NCBI GenBank assembly: GCA_964601215.1
Contig: CAZRMN010000002.1
Location: 2,314 to 57,081 of the forward strand
Origin: an uncultured archaeon
GTDB taxonomy: Archaea; Aenigmatarchaeota; Aenigmatarchaeia; CG10238-14; SCSR01
DNA: 54,768 nt
Direction: 5' to 3'
The notes below the pieces were generated by a model. It worked only from the letters and a program-made list of their open reading frames with translations, was not told the origin of the DNA and made no database searches. Position 1 is the first letter of the stretch. Each line of letters opens with the position of its first letter. The position numbers and the translations under genes are program-made. Below are positions 13,387-34,949 of this stretch, piece after piece.

Positions 13387-13542
13387 ATGAACCAGAAAAA
13401 CCTAGAAAACATAAGGTTCATAGAAGAACAACTTTTCCAAGCAAAGCAGGCTTTGTTCAATGCAAAAACAGTAAGAGAGGTAAAGTTTTTACAACAAAAG
13501 ATTGAATATCTTAGAAAAAGAGCAAAAGAGCTTAGGGGTTAA
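13387..13542 (+). CDS. Small orphan helical protein, 51 aa
   Basis: Manual translation MNQKNLENIRFIEEQLFQAKQALFNAKTVREVKFLQQKIEYLRKRAKELRG; occupies otherwise empty intergenic space. Confidence 0.6.
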   Translation: MNQKNLENIRFIEEQLFQAKQALFNAKTVREVKFLQQKIEYLRKRAKELRG

Positions 13543-13571
13543 AGAGTTTTTTGTTTTATATTTAAAAGAAT

Positions 13572-13590
13572 AAAAAAGCTTATATATTTC
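13572..13590 (+). promoter_or_regulatory. BRE-TATA promoter upstream of the asparagine synthetase leader
   Basis: AAAAAAGC-TTATATATTT about 25 nt before the first leader hairpin. Confidence 0.55.
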
Positions 13591-13608
13591 TGTAGACTAA
13601 AATGAGTG

Positions 13609-13714
13609 TGGGTCTTGTTCGAACCACCCATAAAACCAAAAACTAATTCTCCAAAGAGTTTCTTACCTAAAATCACTTTAGACCCCTCCCCTTCGAAAAA
13701 AAGGAGGGATTGAA
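13609..13714 (+). promoter_or_regulatory. Structured 5' leader with anti-SD hairpin
   Basis: TGGGT(13609-13)/ACCCA(13626-30); CCCTCC(13684-89)/GGAGGG(13703-08) covering the SD; alternative GGGTCT(13610-15)/AGACCC(13680-85). Confidence 0.55.
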
Positions 13715-14707
13715 ATGGAAATTTTAAAACAAACTAAAGAAAGGTATAAGATTTTAAACACTCCAGAAATACAAGCTTTAGCAAAAATAGAATCCTCCTT
13801 GCTAAAGGGTGCAAGAAAATATTGCGAAGAAAACGGATTTGTGGAAATAATTGCGCCACATTTAACAAAAGCTACTGGTGCATGCGAAAACATTGCAACT
13901 ATGTTTGAGCTAAATTATTTTGGACAGAAAGCATACCTTAGCCAAACAGGACAGCTATACTTAGAAATAATGACACCTTTTTTGAAAAAAGTTTGGTGTT
14001 TAATTCATAGTTGTAGAGCAGAACCAGAAGTTGATAACAGACATCTGACAGAATTCCCTTTAATAGAAATAGAATTCGAAGGAAATTTAAAAGAACTAAT
14101 GCATCACATCGAAGGAATTATTCATTCTATGGTGAGTAAAGTTAAAAAAAGGGAGGAAGAACTTGAAGTTTTTGGGATTGACAAACAATACTTAAAAAAA
14201 TTTGAACCACCTTACAAAAGGATTACCTATACACAAGCAATAGAAATATTAAAGGACGAGTTTCAGATAGAGTGGGGAGATGATATTAAAAGTAAGCATG
14301 AAAAATACCTTTCAAAGTTTTTGGGTATGAAACCATTCTTTTTGACACACTGGCCAAAAGCAATAAAATTTTTTAACATGAGGGAAAACGATGACAACCC
14401 AGATATAGTAAATAGTTGTGACCTAATCCTGCCGTTTAGTGGAGAAGCAGTTGGGGGAGCAGAAAGAGAATACAAATATGAAAAACTGAAAAGAAGACTT
14501 GAAGAATCGCTAATGTTAAAAATGCTGGTTGAAAGAGGTGGAAGTATAAAAGATTTTGAATGGTATCTCGACTTCCACAAGAACAATAGCATAAACTTAC
14601 ATTCAGGTTGTGGTATTGGTTTCAACAGAGTAACTCAATCGATTCTAAAACTAGATGATATAAGAGCGTCAACAGTTTTTCCTTTAAACAAAGAAATGAT
14701 AATGTAA
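13715..14707 (+). CDS. Archaeal asparagine synthetase / AsnRS2-like (class IIb aaRS catalytic core without anticodon-binding domain)
   Basis: YLSQTGQLYLE, RAEPEVDNRHLTEF (motif 2), EAVGGAERE, HSGCGIGFNR (motif 3); 330 aa with no N-terminal OB fold. Confidence 0.8.
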   Translation: MEILKQTKERYKILNTPEIQALAKIESSLLKGARKYCEENGFVEIIAPHLTKATGACENIATMFELNYFGQKAYLSQTGQLYLEIMTPFLKKVWCLIHSCRAEPEVDNRHLTEFPLIEIEFEGNLKELMHHIEGIIHSMVSKVKKREEELEVFGIDKQYLKKFEPPYKRITYTQAIEILKDEFQIEWGDDIKSKHEKYLSKFLGMKPFFLTHWPKAIKFFNMRENDDNPDIVNSCDLILPFSGEAVGGAEREYKYEKLKRRLEESLMLKMLVERGGSIKDFEWYLDFHKNNSINLHSGCGIGFNRVTQSILKLDDIRASTVFPLNKEMIM

Positions 14708-14747
14708 AAGATAAATAGTTTAGAAACTAATTTAAAGGTGGGTCTCG

Positions 14748-15692
14748 ATTACACAGGAAACTTCTTCTTTCAAGGGTAGAGATATAATCAGTTCAAGAGA
14801 TTTTTCACGTGAAGATCTTGAACTAATCTTTTCTGTTACAGACGAGGTTATAGCAAAACCAAAAAAATTTGAAAAAAAGCTGGAGGACAAGATAATTTCT
14901 CTACTCTTTTTTGAACCGTCTACAAGAACTAGGGATAGTTTCCAAACAGCAATTTTCAGGATGGGGGGTAAAACTTTAGGCTTTCCTGAGCCAGGCATTT
15001 CTTCTGTTAAAAAAGGTGAAAGCCTTAGGGATACTATAAGCATGTACGATAGTTATAGCGATTTGATAATTATGAGACATAAATGGGCTGGAGCAGCGAA
15101 GTTGGCAAGCGAAGTTGCAAAAAAACCAGTAATAAATGCTGGAGATGGGAACAGGGAACATCCAACTCAAGCAATGTTAGACTTGTATACTATTAGAAAA
15201 GTTATTGGCAGGTTGGATTCACTTAAGGTTGGTATACTTGGAGATTTAAAATATGGTAGAACAGGATCTTCTCTTAGTTATGGTTTGTCAAATTTTAAAG
15301 ATGTGGAGCTATTTTTTATATCCCCTCCAATCTTACAAATGAGGCCAGAGGTAAAACTTTTCTTAACCCTTAAAGGTATAAAATTCCATGAGACTACCAA
15401 TCCTTATGATGTTATTAAATATTTGGATGTGCTTTATGTGACAAGAATTCAAAAAGAAAGGTTTTCCGACCCTTCTGAATATGAAAAAGTAAGGGGAGCT
15501 TATATAGTAGATGAAAAATTAATCAATGAAGGAAAACCAGAGCTTAAGGTTATGCACCCATTACCAAGAATAGATGAAATTCCTTATGAAGTTGATAAGC
15601 TTCCGCAAGCAACTTATATTGGACAAGCTGAAAACGGGCCTTACGTGAGACAAGCACTTATAGCTCTTGTCATGGGTGTTTATGATGAATGA
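14748..15692 (+). CDS. pyrB: Aspartate carbamoyltransferase catalytic subunit; start probably non-canonical ATT at 14748
   Basis: FKGRDIIS, FFEPSTRTR, HPTQAMLD, VTRIQKER, MHPLPR; frame open back to TAA 14733-35, so the track start at 14961 truncates conserved sequence. Confidence 0.93.
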   Translation: MTQETSSFKGRDIISSRDFSREDLELIFSVTDEVIAKPKKFEKKLEDKIISLLFFEPSTRTRDSFQTAIFRMGGKTLGFPEPGISSVKKGESLRDTISMYDSYSDLIIMRHKWAGAAKLASEVAKKPVINAGDGNREHPTQAMLDLYTIRKVIGRLDSLKVGILGDLKYGRTGSSLSYGLSNFKDVELFFISPPILQMRPEVKLFLTLKGIKFHETTNPYDVIKYLDVLYVTRIQKERFSDPSEYEKVRGAYIVDEKLINEGKPELKVMHPLPRIDEIPYEVDKLPQATYIGQAENGPYVRQALIALVMGVYDE

Positions 15693-16179
15693 TAAAAGAA
15701 AGGAGCTAATAGTAAAGAAAATTGAAAATGGAACAGTAATAGACCATATACCAAAGGGTAAGGGTATAGTGGTTATGAGAATTTTAAGAGTAGATTGCAA
15801 CACAGAATGCTATCTTTTGCAAAATGTTGAGAGTAAAAAATTGGGCAGGAAAGATATAGTCAAAATAGTTGGAAGATATCCAAGCAAAGAAGAGGTAGAT
15901 GATATTGCAATAGTTGCACCTACAGCCACCATAAATTATGTTAAAAATTGGGGAATTTTTGATAAGTATAGAGTTAAACTACCAGAAAAAATAGAAGGTT
16001 TAATTAAGTGTCCAAACAACTTATGCATAACTAATCATGAAAGAGGTATGAAAACTGTTTTTAAAGTTTATCAATTCAAGAATGAGCTACTAAAAAATTT
16101 GTATGGAGACGTTTTACTTCAATGTTCTTATTGTGATACTTTAGTAAAGCATGAAAATATAGAGGAACTTTTGATATAG
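15685..16179 (+). CDS. pyrI: Aspartate carbamoyltransferase regulatory subunit
   Basis: KIENGTVIDHI, KDIVKI, APTATIN, CPNNLCIT...CSYC zinc site. Confidence 0.95.
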   Translation: MNDKRKELIVKKIENGTVIDHIPKGKGIVVMRILRVDCNTECYLLQNVESKKLGRKDIVKIVGRYPSKEEVDDIAIVAPTATINYVKNWGIFDKYRVKLPEKIEGLIKCPNNLCITNHERGMKTVFKVYQFKNELLKNLYGDVLLQCSYCDTLVKHENIEELLI

Positions 16180-16265
16180 CCCCGCCCGGATTCGAACCGG
16201 GGTCGCGAGGTCCAGAGCCTCGCATGCTTGACCATTCTGCTCCTGAAGATCTACACCACGGGGCT
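16177..16265 (-). tRNA. tRNA-Gln(CTG) with a 16-nt D-loop insertion (putative intron 15/16)
   Basis: AGCCCCG/CGGGGCT acceptor stem, CGAGG-CTCTGGA-CCTCG, CCCGG-TTCGAAT-CCGGG; extra ATCTTCAGGAGCAGAA between G15 and T16. Confidence 0.92.
16235..16250 (-). other. Putative non-canonical tRNA intron at 15/16
   Basis: Removal restores an ordinary AG-TGGTCAA D-loop; length fits BHB geometry (1 + 9-nt hairpin + 4 + 2) with 3 of 4 central pairs. Confidence 0.75.
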
Positions 16266-24378: not shown

Positions 24379-24492
24379 CCCCGCTTAGCTCAACGGTAGA
24401 GCGACCGGCTGTAGATAAGTGCTTTGGCACTTGTTGGTAGCCATCGCTCAGCACATACCGGTAGGTTGGGAGTTCAAATCTCCCAGCGGGGA
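24379..24492 (+). tRNA. tRNA-Tyr(GTA) with a 42-nt intron at 37/38 (24415-24456)
   Basis: C1-G72 acceptor CCCCGCT/AGCGGGG, ACCGG-CTGTAG[intron]A-CCGGT, GGGAG-TTCAAAT-CTCCC. Confidence 0.95.
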
Positions 24493-24533
24493 CTTAACGT
24501 TAAGTTTAAAAAAGCTTGAACCAATTAATAAAT

Positions 24534-24653
24534 TGGTTGGCGACCAAAGCGGACGGGAACGACCTGGTCCCATTCCGAACCCAGAAGTCAAACCGTCCAG
24601 CGGTGTGGGCTGTACTCTCCGAAAGGAGGGGAACTCCACAACGTTGCCAACCA
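24534..24653 (+). rRNA. rrf: 5S rRNA
   Basis: Terminal helix TGGTTGGCGAC/GTTGCCAACCA; conserved CCCATTCCGAACCCAGAAGTCAA; 120 nt. Confidence 0.95.
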
Positions 24654-24702
24654 TTCATTTTTTTAAATTTTTAAGATGTATGGAATAAAATATTATAAGA
24701 AT

Positions 24703-24796
24703 GCCTCGGTCGTCTAGGGGCCTAGGATGCAGGCCTGTCACGCCTGAGATGGAAAACCATCGGCGAACGACACGGGTTCAAATCCCGTCCGAGGCG
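24703..24796 (+). tRNA. tRNA-Asp(GTC) with a 21-nt intron at 43/44
   Basis: GCCTCGG/CCGAGGC plus G73, CAGGC-CTGTCAC-GCCTG, ACGGG-TTCAAAT-CCCGT; 25 nt in place of the 4-nt variable region. Confidence 0.94.
24747..24767 (+). other. Non-canonical tRNA intron at 43/44 with BHB-like motif
   Basis: Central helix CGCC/GGCG, bulges TG^A and AA^C, intron hairpin GATGG-AAAA-CCATC; excision leaves CGAC. Confidence 0.88.
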
Positions 24797-24917
24797 TTTA
24801 GAAAAGCGTTAAGTTTAAAAATACTCAAATACTTATATAGGAATATTAACCATCGAGGGATGGTGGAAAAATTTAGAAATTGTTTCTCTAGTAGAAGGGC
24901 TTTTTTCCGGTGGTAGA

Positions 24918-33791: not shown

Positions 33792-34949
33792 TCAAATTGT
33801 AATTACCTCTGTCTCTTTTAAAGCATCTTTAACAAGCTTTTTAATTTTAAGATTTTTCTCAAGAGTTTTTATTTTTTTAGGGTCTGATTTAGTTGCAGGA
33901 TGCTTTGGAACAAACAAACTGCAACAGTCTTCTTGAGGTTTTATTGAAATACCATAAGTCCCTATTTTTTTAGCCAAGTCAATTATTTCAACTTTATCCA
34001 TTCCCAAAAGAGGTCTAAAAACTTGCAATTTTGTAGCTTCAGCAATAGTTGTAATATTATCTAAAGTTTGCGAAGAAACTTGAGCAAGGTTCTCTCCTGT
34101 TACTAAAGCTTTTATTCCTTCTTTTTTCGCAATTTCTTCAGAAATTCTAAGCATGAATCTTCTGTAGACGATTATCCTATACTTTGCAGGAATTTTTGTT
34201 TTGACTTGAGTTTGAATTTTATGAAAAGGAATGAAATAAACTTTGCTTTTAAACTGAAATTGGTTTAAAACTTTTACTAACTCTTTCGTTTTTTCAATAC
34301 TTGCTTTAGAAACTAAAGGGAAAGAATGGAAGTGAACAAAAACAACTTTACAACCACGCTTCATCATTAGCCAAGCTGCAACAGGAGAGTCTATCCCACC
34401 TGAAATTAAGGATAAAACTTTTCCAGAAGTACTTACAGGTAAACCACCAAGTCCTTTAATTATTTCAGTATAAACATAAGTATCTTTTCCTCTGACCTCA
34501 ACAAAAATTTCTTTGTCAGGATTTTTAAGGTTAACTTTCCTTTTCACCACACTTCCAAGAACGCTTGCTAATTCCTGACTAGTATACTTATGTTCACCAA
34601 CTCTTTTCACTCTAACAGCAAAAGTTTCATTTTTCTTTATCCATTTTTCATAGTTTTTTTCGATAAAACTTTTAATTCTTTCTAATTTTGAAGTTTTTAA
34701 ATGAAATGCTGGAGAAAAAGAAACAATACCAAAAATTTTTTTTAAAATTTCACAAGATTCTTCTAAATCCCAAACTTTAAGAAAAATTCTTCCTCTTTCT
34801 CTTTTTATTTTTACTTTTATGTTTTTTAGCCTGAAAGCTCTTTTGATATTTTCAACAAGTTTTTTTTCATACATTTTTGCGACAAACTCTGACTTAAGAA
34901 ATATCTCGCCATATCTTACAAGAATTAATCTTTCAAGCATAAAACCCAC
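33792..34949 (-). CDS. thiI: tRNA 4-thiouridine synthase ThiI (THUMP + PP-loop, no rhodanese domain)
   Basis: RYGEIFLKS, GGLPVSTSG, SGGIDSPVA, GENLAQVSSQT, EDCC. Confidence 0.95.
   Translation of the reverse strand: MGFMLERLILVRYGEIFLKSEFVAKMYEKKLVENIKRAFRLKNIKVKIKRERGRIFLKVWDLEESCEILKKIFGIVSFSPAFHLKTSKLERIKSFIEKNYEKWIKKNETFAVRVKRVGEHKYTSQELASVLGSVVKRKVNLKNPDKEIFVEVRGKDTYVYTEIIKGLGGLPVSTSGKVLSLISGGIDSPVAAWLMMKRGCKVVFVHFHSFPLVSKASIEKTKELVKVLNQFQFKSKVYFIPFHKIQTQVKTKIPAKYRIIVYRRFMLRISEEIAKKEGIKALVTGENLAQVSSQTLDNITTIAEATKLQVFRPLLGMDKVEIIDLAKKIGTYGISIKPQEDCCSLFVPKHPATKSDPKKIKTLEKNLKIKKLVKDALKETEVITI

What the first reader, a model, noticed from the sequence alone, without database searches (positions are those of the whole stretch)
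13609..13717. Riboswitch-like leader with mutually exclusive helices controlling the asparagine synthetase SD
Seen: a GC-rich structured leader of about 105 nt in AT-rich DNA. Fold A: hairpin TGGGT/ACCCA plus anti-SD hairpin CCCTCC/GGAGGG, which buries the SD 7 nt before the ATG. Fold B: long-range GGGTCT(13610-15)/AGACCC(13680-85), which uses bases from both fold-A helices and should weaken SD occlusion. Known: this anti-anti-SD logic is the layout of translational riboswitches and T-box-like leaders, and very few cis-acting RNA switches are described in archaea. Inference: candidate new archaeal switch responding to Asn/Asp, a pyrimidine or a tRNA.
Basis: partly seen in the sequence, partly recalled or inferred. 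Interest (0 to 1): 0.72.

Follow-up and report, generated by a model that had tools for sequence, protein, structure and literature searches.

The report
Translated leader hiding a ribosome-binding site
The stretch before this archaeal asparagine-synthetase-like gene is probably not a metabolite-sensing riboswitch but a short translated leader, derived from what is the start of the protein in related species, that runs through a hairpin hiding the gene's ribosome-binding site, so the enzyme is probably made mainly while the leader is being translated.

Summary
The whole leader folds no better than shuffles (z -0.40). The 5' hairpin is unremarkable (p 0.43). The SD hairpin is marginal (p 0.047). 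"Fold B" costs 5.4 kcal/mol and leaves the SD fully paired, because the tract CCCCUCCCCUUC offers a second register. Rfam finds nothing.

About 170 related loci change the picture. A TATA box sits 23 nt upstream of an invariant start-site motif, GUGUGGGUCUUG. In most orthologues (Bathyarchaeia, Nitrososphaeria, the closest relatives) this motif opens an in-frame N-terminal extension of the AsnRS-core protein. In the window's lineage, and in several other lineages on a rough tree, the gene has its own SD and AUG inside an anti-SD hairpin. The old extension survives as a 35-44-codon upstream ORF. It is stop-free (1 stop versus 25 and 27 in the other frames). It crosses both hairpin arms and ends -1 to +38 nt from the AUG, in varying frames.

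The best reading is translational coupling through a leader ORF that starts at or near the 5' end. The same motif precedes pyrB in the window's lineage, which suggests co-regulation. No aptamer and no significant covariation were found. The TSS and the signal remain unknown.

The parts
13579..13586 (+). TATA box (CTTATATA) preceded by an A-rich BRE-like stretch
   Evidence: A TATA-like 8-mer lies 23 nt (61 of 99 leader contexts) or 25 nt (22 of 99) upstream of the GGG of the motif in orthologous loci. The leaderless-looking neighbour gene 13387 shows the same TATA-to-start spacing. Promoter function is inferred; no TSS data exist.
13606..13617 (+). Conserved start-site motif GTGTGGGTCTTG. It holds two overlapping GTGs (13606, 13608), the GGG run 13610-13612 and TTG 13615. 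It is the probable transcript 5' end and the start of the leader ORF.
   Evidence: The motif is identical in L081/L082, L001, L147, L161 and L166-L170. The Y-GGG-Y core is present in 99 distinct orthologue leaders from Bathyarchaeia, Nitrososphaeria, Aenigmatarchaeota-labelled and other MAGs. The reading frame relative to the motif differs between lineages (MWV against MGF), so conservation is at nucleotide level.
13606..13713 (+). Leader (upstream) ORF of 35 codons plus TGA: MWVLFEPPIKPKTNSPKSFLPKITLDPSPSKKRRD*. It is +1 out of frame with the main ORF.
   Evidence: The ORF is homologous to the in-frame N-terminal extension of orthologues (P0002 MWVLIRPDLNS..., P0003 MWVLFNQKTISE...). Across 11 type-II leaders this frame has 1 stop, against 25 and 27 in the other two frames. 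It always crosses the anti-SD and the SD and stops -1 to +38 nt from the main ATG.
13607..13632 (+).
   Evidence: MFE structure. It is not significant on its own (p 0.43). It is the analogue of a 5' hairpin with variable 3' arms in relatives: GACCC, AGACCU, AGACUU, AAGGCC, GGCCC, AAGCC.
13680..13685 (+). AGACCC, the distal partner of GGGTCT 13610-13615 ('Fold B')
   Evidence: The complementarity is present. A distal GAC(A)CC / GAUGCC partner is also present in 8 related leaders, with 97.5% of cells paired but no covariation. In the window it is disfavoured and does not free the SD.
13683..13694 (+). Pyrimidine tract CCCCTCCCCTTC holding the anti-SD. It offers two registers: CCCTCC 13684-13689 and CCCTTC 13689-13694.
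   Evidence: Pyrimidine tracts of 7-16 nt occur at the same place in relatives (read from the sequences printed).
13695..13702 (+). A-rich hairpin loop (G + A7)
   Evidence: L081/L082 have A8 here. An A-rich run directly before the SD is common in relatives.
13703..13708 (+). Shine-Dalgarno GGAGGG, 6 nt before the ATG
   Evidence: Predicted paired with probability about 1.0. It is the only strong discrete anti-SD hairpin among the SD-bearing starts found in the window.
13711..13717 (+). Leader-ORF stop next to the main start: TGA-A-ATG
   Evidence: In L081/L082 the stop has moved to an ATGA overlap and the frame offset has changed, yet the ORF stays open.
13715..14707 (+). AsnRS-catalytic-core paralogue (330 aa), a putative AsnA-type asparagine synthetase
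   Evidence: PF00152, 6e-50. Nearest solved structure is AsnRS 1x54. Below the NCBIfam cut-offs for AsnRS and for AsnA. In L161 it lies next to an aminotransferase and pyrB.
14710..14747 (+). Second copy of the promoter and motif, in front of pyrB: GATAAATA, 22 nt, then GGGTCTCG (GTGGGTCT 14738-14745)
   Evidence: The same motif heads pyrB in L081, L147 (GTGTGGGTCTGT), L161 (GGTGTGGGTTTT) and L173 (TTGTGGGTCTCG). pyrB products of this lineage start LWVS / MWVV / MWVA.

Best explanation
The leader is a translational-coupling device built from a former piece of the gene.

Transcription most likely starts about 23-24 nt downstream of the TATA box, within GUGUGGG (inferred). That puts a GUG at or within a few nucleotides of the 5' end.

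In most orthologues this start opens an N-terminal extension fused in frame to the AsnRS-core enzyme. In the window's lineage a segment carrying an SD and a new AUG lies between the extension and the core. The extension is now a separate 35-codon ORF (13606-13713).

The SD (13703-13708) is locked in a hairpin with a pyrimidine tract (13683-13694) that lies inside the leader ORF. A ribosome translating the leader must unwind that hairpin. It then terminates at UGA, one nucleotide before the AUG. The enzyme's start is therefore used either by a newly bound subunit on the transiently open SD or by reinitiation.

Expression of the enzyme thus depends on initiation at the conserved 5' motif. pyrB carries the same motif in this lineage, so the two aspartate-consuming enzymes are probably co-controlled at that step. 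What acts on the motif is not known.

Shown by sequence comparison: the motif, the open frame, the hairpin and the stop position. Inferred: the TSS, translation of the leader, the coupling and the co-regulation.
For: (1) Motif and promoter geometry are conserved. Of 99 distinct orthologue leaders, 61 have TATA + 23 nt and 22 have TATA + 25 nt before Y-GGG-Y.

(2) In type-I orthologues the motif is always in frame with the enzyme. Offsets are -54, -60, -66 or -72, with no stops.

(3) In 11 type-II leaders the ORF from the motif has 1 stop, against 25 and 27 in the other frames. The chance of an open frame is 0.08-0.29 per leader.

(4) That ORF always crosses the anti-SD and the SD and stops -1 to +38 nt from the main AUG. 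This holds although the frame offset is +1, +2 or 0, and differs even between the window and the 97-98% identical L081/L082.

(5) The leader peptides are recognisably the old extension (MWVL[FIL]RP.L...).

(6) SD-sequestering hairpins accompany the added SD in clade X and also in L104, L033, L041, L036, L148 and L123. These sit apart on an NJ tree. In all but L041 an ORF from a start codon at the motif runs into the anti-SD. The hairpin region is more stable than shuffles in 8 of 11 leaders.

(7) In the window neither the alternative fold nor a 5' poly-G extension frees the SD, which leaves a translating ribosome as the plausible opener.

[quoted passage not shown] E. coli has leadered mRNAs with a translated 5'-terminal AUG (PMC4965119).
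Against: There is no TSS or ribosome-profiling evidence, so the 5' end is inferred from TATA spacing only.

Substitutions in the leader ORF show no clear codon periodicity (355/402/435). The frame is kept open but the peptide is weakly constrained.

The type-II leaders of clade X share ancestry, so the 11 leaders are not 11 independent trials.

L041 has the hairpin but no start codon at the motif. L037 has an SD but no motif was detected upstream.

Stops up to +38 nt past the AUG are far for backward reinitiation. A leader ribosome overlapping the start could also repress it.

Folding was done at 37 C. The 6-bp helix falls to -2 kcal/mol at 80 C, although rRNA and tRNA G+C of 56-62% does not suggest a hyperthermophile.

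The start codon actually used (GUG 13606, GUG 13608 or UUG 13615) cannot be decided.
Confidence: 0.55

Rival explanations
1. A shared trans-acting regulator does the sensing. It would be either a transcription factor whose operator overlaps the start site, or an RNA-binding protein on the 5' hairpin, and would act on both the AsnRS-like gene and pyrB. The SD hairpin would only set a low basal level. This rival partly overlaps the best explanation, because it could be the unknown input to it.
For: The same motif and similar promoter spacers precede both genes in four genomes of this lineage. In many lineages the motif is half of an inverted repeat, GGGTC-N5-GACCC or GGCTT-N5-AAGCC, as expected for a dimeric operator. 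The window holds an 8-bp palindrome GTTCGAAC at 13617-13624. The motif is conserved irrespective of reading frame.
Against: The 3' half of the repeat is not conserved in sequence or distance: it is absent in L001/L147 and 12 nt away in the window. G.U-type 'pairs' (GATCC, AGACTT, AAGGCC) fit RNA better than a DNA palindrome. No candidate regulator gene is conserved next to the locus; a TrmB-family gene precedes L171 only.
Confidence: 0.15
2. An evolutionary relic without regulation. A frameshift or insertion split the N-terminal extension from the enzyme, and an internal SD-AUG rescued expression. The hairpin and the open upstream frame would be leftovers.
For: The leader is clearly derived from coding sequence. 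The peptide is weakly constrained. Close relatives differ in homopolymer lengths and frame offset. On the tree the window groups with type-I lineages.
Against: A leftover frame should accumulate stops, yet it has 1 against 25 and 27. The added SD comes with an anti-SD in lineages that sit apart on the tree. The hairpin is maintained or strengthened between the window and L081, where GGAGGGAUU becomes GGGGGGGGUU and pairs with CCCCUCCC. The 5' motif is invariant at 14 nt between orthologues whose proteins are only 74% identical.
Confidence: 0.1
3. NTP-sensing initiation, as at bacterial pyr genes. Start-site choice or reiterative G addition at GUGUGGGUC would depend on UTP/CTP. Extra 5' G residues, or a different 5' end, would then pair with the pyrimidine tract and free the SD, or decide whether a 5'-terminal GUG is present and in frame.
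For: The run is exactly three G flanked by pyrimidines in 98 of 99 leaders, though the search pattern itself partly imposed this. A pyrimidine is at -1. A downstream pyrimidine-rich tract is longer than the SD needs (sequences). The motif is shared with pyrB. B. subtilis pyrG needs just these two elements, an ITR GGGC and a pyrimidine-rich attenuator segment, with a three-G run optimal (PMC7039003).
Against: In the window, adding 2-10 G to the 5' end leaves the SD 0.88-1.0 paired, because the tract accommodates both partners. Type-I orthologues and pyrB have the motif but no tract or hairpin to act on. Reiterative transcription by archaeal RNA polymerase at such sites did not come up in my limited literature searches.
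Confidence: 0.08
4. One reading: a metabolite- or tRNA-binding riboswitch that toggles between Fold A (SD closed) and Fold B (SD open).
For: Two mutually exclusive partners for the 5' GGGUC exist in the window and in 8 related leaders. The local partner is paired in 89.6% of cells and the distal in 97.5%, against 40-59% for slid controls. The SD hairpin is conserved.
Against: No Rfam family, T-box included, matches. The roughly 50-nt spacer that would have to form the aptamer is not conserved. Covariation does not exceed shuffles (about 150-200 of 500 shuffles reach the observed score). Fold B is 5.4 kcal/mol worse and leaves the SD paired. The segment is kept as an open reading frame. In most orthologues the same sequence is simply coding.
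Confidence: 0.07
5. An RNA thermometer: the SD hairpin melts with temperature.
For: A short GC helix with an A-rich loop closes the SD. Predicted stability falls from -10.1 kcal/mol at 37 C to -2.1 at 80 C. Many relatives come from MAGs whose sample codes look like hot-spring series; that reading is my inference from the names.
Against: It explains neither the conserved 5' motif, nor the open frame, nor the stop position. Helix length varies from 6 to 12 bp between near-identical strains.
Confidence: 0.03

Closest known systems
[quoted passage not shown]
   Same: The downstream initiation region is base-paired with sequence inside the upstream reading frame, and translation of that frame opens it. 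The stop and start are adjacent or overlapping: UGAAAUG here, AUGA in L081.
   Different: The upstream frame is not a gene. It is a 35-codon remnant of the enzyme's own N-terminus. It appears to start at or near the transcript's 5' end without an SD. Its frame offset to the gene varies between lineages.
E. coli leadered mRNAs with a translated 5'-terminal AUG (5'-uAUG; PMC4965119)
   Same: One mRNA combines a 5'-terminal start codon of leaderless type with a conventional SD-led cistron downstream. Upstream translation can influence the downstream cistron.
   Different: Here the organism is an archaeon, the start is GUG within GUGUG, the motif is conserved across phyla, and a dedicated SD-sequestering hairpin lies inside the uORF. 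The 5'-terminal position is inferred, not mapped.
Mycobacterial leaderless polycysteine short ORFs acting as attenuators (bioRxiv 10.1101/834739)
   Same: Leaderless short ORFs at the head of a transcript control downstream biosynthetic genes through their own translation.
   Different: No run of regulatory codons is evident here. There is one Asn codon, and a conserved Asp codon just before the anti-SD. The sensing logic is unknown.
B. subtilis pyrG (GGGC reiterative transcription) and other start-site-proximal control of bacterial pyr genes (PMC7039003)
   Same: A three-G initially transcribed run is followed by a pyrimidine. A pyrimidine-rich segment forms part of an inhibitory hairpin downstream. 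A pyrimidine-pathway gene (pyrB) is involved.
   Different: The output here would be translation, not termination. Modelling shows that poly-G does not free the SD in the window. No evidence exists for slippage by archaeal RNA polymerase.
SD-sequestering translational riboswitches and T-box leaders
   Same: An anti-SD/SD helix acts as the expression platform, and alternative pairings are available to an upstream strand.
   Different: No conserved aptamer, no family match and no covariation were found. The would-be aptamer region is an open reading frame, and it is plain coding sequence in most orthologues.

Membership tests
Metabolite-binding riboswitch | Match to a described aptamer family | tested here: not met
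   Rfam 15 gave nothing in 13450-13800 at gathering threshold. The best chance-level hits had E of at least 1.2.
Metabolite-binding riboswitch | Conserved structured aptamer with covarying helices upstream of the expression platform | tested here: not met
   The spacer between the motif and the anti-SD is unalignable between the window and 70-76% identical orthologues. Covariation score is 0.154-0.160 against 0.148-0.151 in shuffles, reached by about 150-200 of 500 shuffles.
Metabolite-binding riboswitch | Two mutually exclusive folds, one of which exposes the SD | tested here: not met
   The alternative partners exist. But Fold B is -17.0 against -22.4 kcal/mol, has P of at most 0.03, and leaves the SD at least 0.99 paired.
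Metabolite-binding riboswitch | Direct ligand binding | not testable with these tools
   This needs in-line probing, SHAPE or ITC.
T-box leader | Stem I with specifier loop, plus a T-box bulge (UGGN) that pairs with the tRNA NCCA end | tested here: not met
   No T-box hit at E up to 10. The UGGG in the motif would need a C discriminator; that judgement rests on my own knowledge.
Leader-ORF translational coupling (upstream-translation-dependent initiation / termination-reinitiation) | An upstream ORF on the same transcript that traverses the inhibitory helix | tested here: met
   ORF 13606-13713 covers 13683-13708. The same holds in all 11 type-II leaders. Stops by frame are 1, 25 and 27.
Leader-ORF translational coupling (upstream-translation-dependent initiation / termination-reinitiation) | Downstream SD/start sequestered by pairing with sequence inside the upstream ORF | tested here: met
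   Predicted helix 13684-13689/13703-13708, with the SD paired at about 1.0. Conserved in relatives, 8 of 11 at p <= 0.05. This is prediction only.
Leader-ORF translational coupling (upstream-translation-dependent initiation / termination-reinitiation) | Upstream stop close to or overlapping the downstream start | tested here: met
   UGA ends 1 nt before the AUG. The range in relatives is -1 to +38 nt.
Leader-ORF translational coupling (upstream-translation-dependent initiation / termination-reinitiation) | Downstream translation depends on upstream translation | not testable with these tools
   This needs reporter constructs with start-codon and premature-stop mutants.
5'-terminal (leaderless-type) uORF on a leadered mRNA | Start codon at the mapped 5' end of the mRNA | not testable with these tools
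   Only inferred. TATA 13579-13586 predicts a TSS at about 13606-13610. A Y/R step precedes G13608 and G13610.
pyrG-type reiterative-transcription control | Initially transcribed run of three G followed by a pyrimidine | tested here: met
   Y-GGG-Y in 98 of 99 leaders, though the search pattern partly imposed it. The defining elements are quoted.
pyrG-type reiterative-transcription control | Added 5' G residues pair with a pyrimidine tract and thereby disrupt the inhibitory hairpin | tested here: not met
   The tract is present at 13683-13694. But with 2-10 extra G the SD stays 0.88-1.0 paired.
pyrG-type reiterative-transcription control | Non-templated G addition in vivo | not testable with these tools
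   This needs 5'-end RNA sequencing.
Archaeal AsnRS-like asparagine synthetase A | Class II Asp/Asn/Lys-type catalytic core without an anticodon-binding domain | tested here: met
   PF00152 covers residues 6-325. The protein aligns to residues 122-427 of AsnRS 1x54. Bacterial homologues carry about 108 extra N-terminal residues.
Archaeal AsnRS-like asparagine synthetase A | Score above the curated equivalog cut-off | tested here: not met
   The best AsnA model, NF005052, scores 152 bits against a cut-off of 368. AsnRS NF003037 scores 231 against 414.

The most novel reading that the evidence does not exclude
The invariant GUGUGGGUC element at the start site of both the AsnRS-like gene and pyrB may be a dedicated initiation-level sensor. 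One possibility is NTP-dependent choice among the overlapping 5' starts, or G-slippage. That would decide whether a 5'-terminal start codon exists and in which frame. It would be an archaeal counterpart of the start-site-proximal control of bacterial pyr genes.

The same element may also let translation begin without a canonical start codon. That would explain the window's pyrB, which opens TAA|AGG UGG GUC, and the Nitrososphaeria orthologues, which open with GCG CGG GUU.
Probability: 0.1. Interest if true: 0.85.

Novelty: new variant of a known kind. Interest (0 to 1): 0.58.

Why it matters
Few cis-acting translational control elements are documented in archaea. How leaderless and SD-led initiation interact on a single mRNA is largely unexplored there.

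This locus offers a natural series. The same gene occurs with an N-terminal extension fused to the enzyme. It also occurs with that extension split off as an upstream ORF that gates a sequestered SD. The split form appears in several lineages that sit apart on the tree.

That makes a concrete hypothesis directly testable with reporters: leaderless-type initiation drives SD-led initiation by hairpin opening.

The start-site motif is conserved across phyla. Its presence at pyrB points to a so far undescribed co-regulation of aspartate-consuming enzymes.

The finding also shows how a coding remnant can masquerade as a riboswitch. It flags systematic mis-annotation as well: gene callers truncate or miss the starts of these genes.

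Tried and rejected
- Split tRNA half, T-arm mimic or C/D-box sRNA at 13606-13632. ARAGORN and Rfam find nothing there, and the TTCGAA does not sit in a T-arm context.

- Energy as evidence. The whole-leader and 5'-hairpin z-scores are not significant.

- Background of SD occlusion. My crude start/SD caller found only 10 candidates in the window. Only 13715 has a discrete strong anti-SD hairpin, and the sample is too small for a rate.

- Programmed frameshift or transcriptional slippage at the A-run, to fuse leader and enzyme. The window's AAA-AGG would allow +1, and L081's A-AAA-AAA would allow -1. But relatives with the same A6 run need different shifts (+1 in L162, L168, L169; +2 in L171), and L104 is already in frame. 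I rejected it as a general mechanism.

- Peptide-level selection on the leader. There is no codon periodicity.

- Covariation for either 5' helix or the SD helix within clade X. None was significant.

- Poly-G (pyrG-like) opening of the SD. The folding does not support it.

- Genome-wide regulon search. Within the 54.8-kb window, GTGGGTCT occurs only at the two gene heads. A similar GTGGGTTTTATG at the ThiI start looks coincidental.

- An alternative promoter inside the leader (CTAAAATC at 13668-13675). It is not conserved in relatives.

- DNA for pyrB homologue P0191 could not be retrieved.
Full report
**What is at the coordinates.** The intergenic spacer 13543-13714 lies upstream of a 330-aa ORF (13715-14707).
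- TGGGT 13609-13613 with ACCCA 13626-13630.
- CCCTCC 13684-13689 with GGAGGG, which lies at 13703-13708. The spacer to the ATG is therefore 6 nt.
- GGGTCT 13610-13615 with AGACCC 13680-13685.

The MFE structure contains the first two. The 121-nt leader is no more stable than dinucleotide shuffles (-22.4 against -21.0 +/- 3.5 kcal/mol, z -0.40). The 5' hairpin alone gives p 0.43. The last 55 nt, with the SD hairpin, give z -1.9, p 0.047. G+C is 39% against 32% for the window. Rfam finds nothing here at gathering or permissive thresholds, and ARAGORN finds no tRNA-like gene.

**The gene.** The product is a class II Asp/Asn/Lys-type catalytic core (PF00152). Its closest solved structure is Pyrococcus AsnRS 1x54, over that protein's residues 122-427. 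It scores below the NCBIfam cut-offs of both AsnRS and asparagine synthetase A. Bacterial homologues carry the usual N-terminal anticodon-binding domain of about 108 residues, and the archaeal ones do not. An AsnA-type function is a reasonable inference. It rests on my knowledge of the Pyrococcus AsnRS-like asparagine synthetase, and on synteny with an aminotransferase and pyrB in L161. It was not tested.

**Comparative evidence: the motif.** I collected about 170 related loci from one genome scan, one metagenome scan and twelve contig look-ups.
- In 99 distinct archaeal leader contexts a TATA-like 8-mer is followed by a Y-GGG-Y core. The distance is 23 nt in 61 cases and 25 nt in 22.
- In the window this is CTTATATA 13579-13586, then 23 nt, then GGG 13610-13612, inside GTGTGGGTCTTG.
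- The 14 nt GGTGTGGGTCTTGT are identical between the window and L001/L147, whose proteins are only 73-74% identical.

**Type-I orthologues.** These include Bathyarchaeia, Nitrososphaeria and the closest relatives L161, L001, L147 and L164.
- The motif lies in frame with the enzyme at -54, -60, -66 or -72 nt, with no intervening stop.
- Gene callers start these proteins at the GTG: MWVLIRPDLNS..., MWVLFNQKTISE..., MWVVFTQEIQ....
- The reading frame relative to the motif is not fixed. L009, L040, L036, L148 and the L161 pyrB read the same nucleotides as (G/A)UG-GGY-UUY. The conservation is therefore at nucleotide level.

**Type-II leaders.** The window, L081/L082 (97-98% identical protein), L162/L163, L166-L172 and L104 have a different layout. 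The enzyme has its own SD and start codon, and the motif lies 86-112 nt upstream. The ORF that starts at the motif (GUG at -4, or NUG at +5, relative to GGG) shows these properties:
- It runs 35-44 codons in the ten loci where it is out of frame.
- It crosses the anti-SD and the SD.
- It stops between -1 and +38 nt from the main AUG.
- Its frame offset to the enzyme is +1, +2 or 0. In L104 it is 0, so the ORF continues in frame into the enzyme.

Between the window and L081/L082 there are a 3-nt insertion, changes in homopolymer length (C4 to C3, A7 to A8) and one extra base in the SD segment. These change the offset from +1 to +2 and move the stop from UGA-A-AUG to an AUGA overlap. The frame nevertheless stays open.

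Summed over 11 leaders, the leader frame has one stop, which is the window's terminal UGA. The other two frames have 25 and 27. The chance of an open frame is 0.08-0.29 per leader.

The leader peptides are recognisably the old N-terminal extension (MWVL[FIL]RP.L...). Substitutions show no codon periodicity (355/402/435). What is selected is an open frame rather than a particular peptide.

**The SD hairpin.** An anti-SD/SD helix is predicted in every type-II leader. In 8 of 11 it is more stable than shuffles at p <= 0.05.

On a rough NJ tree the type-II layout appears in clade X, which includes the window. It also appears separately in L104, L033, L041 and the L036/L148 group. L123 has a similar layout. 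In all of these except L041, an ORF beginning with a start codon at the motif runs into or through the anti-SD. L037 has an SD, but no motif was detected upstream of it.

Within the window, the 13715 start is the only one with a discrete, strong anti-SD hairpin among the few SD-bearing starts I could call.

**The proposed switch.** In eight clade-X leaders (alignment A4) the invariant 5' GGGUC can pair locally, with 3' arms AGACCU, AGACUU, AAGGCC, GGCCC or GGACC; 89.6% of cells are paired. It can also pair distally with GAC(A)CC, GACACU or GAUGCC; 97.5% of cells are paired. Slid controls give 40-59%.
The window's AGACCC may correspond to the distal partner.
- The 5' strand never varies, so only one-sided C/U and A/G changes occur. 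The covariation score does not exceed shuffles.
- By my reading of the codon alignment, the same changes are synonymous in the leader frame.
- In the window, forcing Fold B costs 5.4 kcal/mol and its pairs have probability at most 0.03.
- Under Fold B the SD remains at least 0.99 paired, because the 12-nt tract CCCCUCCCCUUC provides a second register, CCCUUC 13689-13694.
- The spacer that would have to form an aptamer is not conserved between the window and its 70-76% relatives.

I conclude that a ligand- or tRNA-driven two-fold switch is not supported.

**Mechanism proposed.** The leader ORF starts at or near the 5' end. Its translation unwinds the SD hairpin and ends at the enzyme's start codon. 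The enzyme is then translated by de novo initiation on the transiently open SD, or by reinitiation.

Both modes are established classes. Termination-reinitiation has been shown in Haloferax (PMC6728339). E. coli mRNAs with translated 5'-terminal AUGs upstream of SD-led cistrons are a close analogue (PMC4965119). So are mycobacterial leaderless short-ORF attenuators (10.1101/834739). The GUGUG arrangement of two overlapping starts is known to give dual-frame initiation in E. coli (PMC9841429, abstract).

The TSS, leader translation and coupling are inferences. Only the sequence architecture and its conservation are shown.

**The input signal.** The same motif, at the same distance from a TATA-like box, heads pyrB.
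- In the window it is GATAAATA, 22 nt, then GGGTCTCG, with GTGGGTCT at 14738-14745.
- It is also present in L081, L147 (GTGTGGGTCTGT, in frame), L161 (GGTGTGGGTTTT, read in another frame) and L173 (TTGTGGGTCTCG).
- pyrB products of this lineage begin LWVS, MWVV or MWVA. Those of Bathyarchaeia, Nitrososphaeria and Thermococcales do not.

Two aspartate-consuming enzymes thus share a start-site element in this lineage, which suggests co-regulation.

A pyrG-like reiterative-transcription mechanism is attractive on paper (three-G run, following pyrimidine, pyrimidine tract; PMC7039003). However, adding 2-10 G to the 5' end does not free the SD in the model, and type-I genes lack any tract to act on. 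A shared DNA- or RNA-binding regulator is equally possible. I cannot decide between these.

**Caveats.**
- Folding used 37 C parameters. rRNA and tRNA G+C of 56-62% does not suggest a hyperthermophile, but the 6-bp helix weakens to -2 kcal/mol at 80 C.
- The type-II leaders of clade X share descent, so they are not independent trials.
- The tree is a simple NJ tree.
- Taxon names are those of the MAG records.

Noticed in passing
window 14733-14775 (pyrB 5' end); L081 3490-3560: pyrB has no canonical in-frame start. The frame opens directly after a TAA as AGG TGG GTC TCG ATT. The Pfam OTCace_N domain is complete from residue 15. The first ATG (14961) would delete the STRTR carbamoyl-phosphate motif. 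A 99% identical database protein is called from that internal ATG (243 aa, P0185). L173 has TTG and L147 has GTG where the window has AGG.
   Followed up: partly
L027 about 2935-2945, L032 2929, L034 2941 (Nitrososphaeria-labelled orthologues): The AsnRS-like ORF begins GCG CGG GTT CAT at the motif. L027 and L034 have no in-frame ATG/GTG/TTG within 25 codons upstream or 50 codons downstream. In L032 the first one lies about 28 codons inside the conserved core. In L034 a TGA directly precedes GCG. Gene callers truncate such proteins to 267-327 aa (P0121, P0123, P0144, P0176). Other members have MRVL / MARVH / MAWVF. How these are initiated is unexplained.
   Followed up: partly
window 13387-13542 (+): A 51-aa ORF lies upstream of the leader and matches no Pfam or NCBIfam family. 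It has leaderless-like geometry (TTTAAATA, 23 nt, ATG). An ORF of 49-56 aa is called in the same position in L161, L162, L166-L170.
   Followed up: partly
window 13696-13702 versus L081/L082: The homopolymer lengths in the hairpin differ between 97-98% identical strains: A7 against A8, and C4 against C3. The SD reads GGAGGGATT in the window and GGGGGGGGTT in L081/L082. This changes the leader/enzyme frame offset and lengthens the helix to about 12 bp. It may be real polymorphism, or partly homopolymer assembly error.
   Followed up: partly
Bathyarchaeia loci, e.g. L002 2935-2960: A 5-bp hairpin GGGUC-NUGRA-GACCC sits at the predicted 5' end. The fourth codon is always GUG, UUG or AUG and lies in the loop. 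The codons GUC and ACC never vary synonymously in dozens of sequences. A sister group has GGCUU-N5-AAGCC, so the arm sequences differ at two pair positions between the groups. z is -2 to -3.7 against shuffles.
   Followed up: partly
L161 1029-3520: A gene cluster of AsnRS-like gene, class I/II aminotransferase (PF00155) and pyrB. The first and last genes are each headed by the GGTGTGGGT motif. In relatives ThrRS follows the AsnRS-like gene directly, whereas the window has pyrB-pyrI and a tRNA-Gln in between.
   Followed up: no
window 34949 (- strand start of ThiI gene 33792-34949): The ThiI-like gene starts TTTTAAAT, 21 nt, then GTGGGTTTTATG. This resembles the motif and is probably coincidental start-site context.
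   Followed up: partly
window 24379-24797 and 16177-16250: A 5S rRNA is flanked by two long tRNA matches of 114 and 94-96 nt, probably intron-containing. tRNA-Gln(CTG) at 16177-16250 (-) is called by ARAGORN but not reported by Rfam at gathering threshold.
   Followed up: no
window 13617-13624: A perfect 8-bp palindrome GTTCGAAC lies in the loop of the 5' hairpin. Relatives have other palindromes at the same place: TCCGGA in L162 and CGGGCCCG in L172.
   Followed up: no
L002 2251, L003 764: In Bathyarchaeia the membrane-protein gene upstream contains CTTTATATG, 24 nt, then GCGCGGGCTGTTCC. It is motif-like, and possibly internal to a longer ORF.
   Followed up: no
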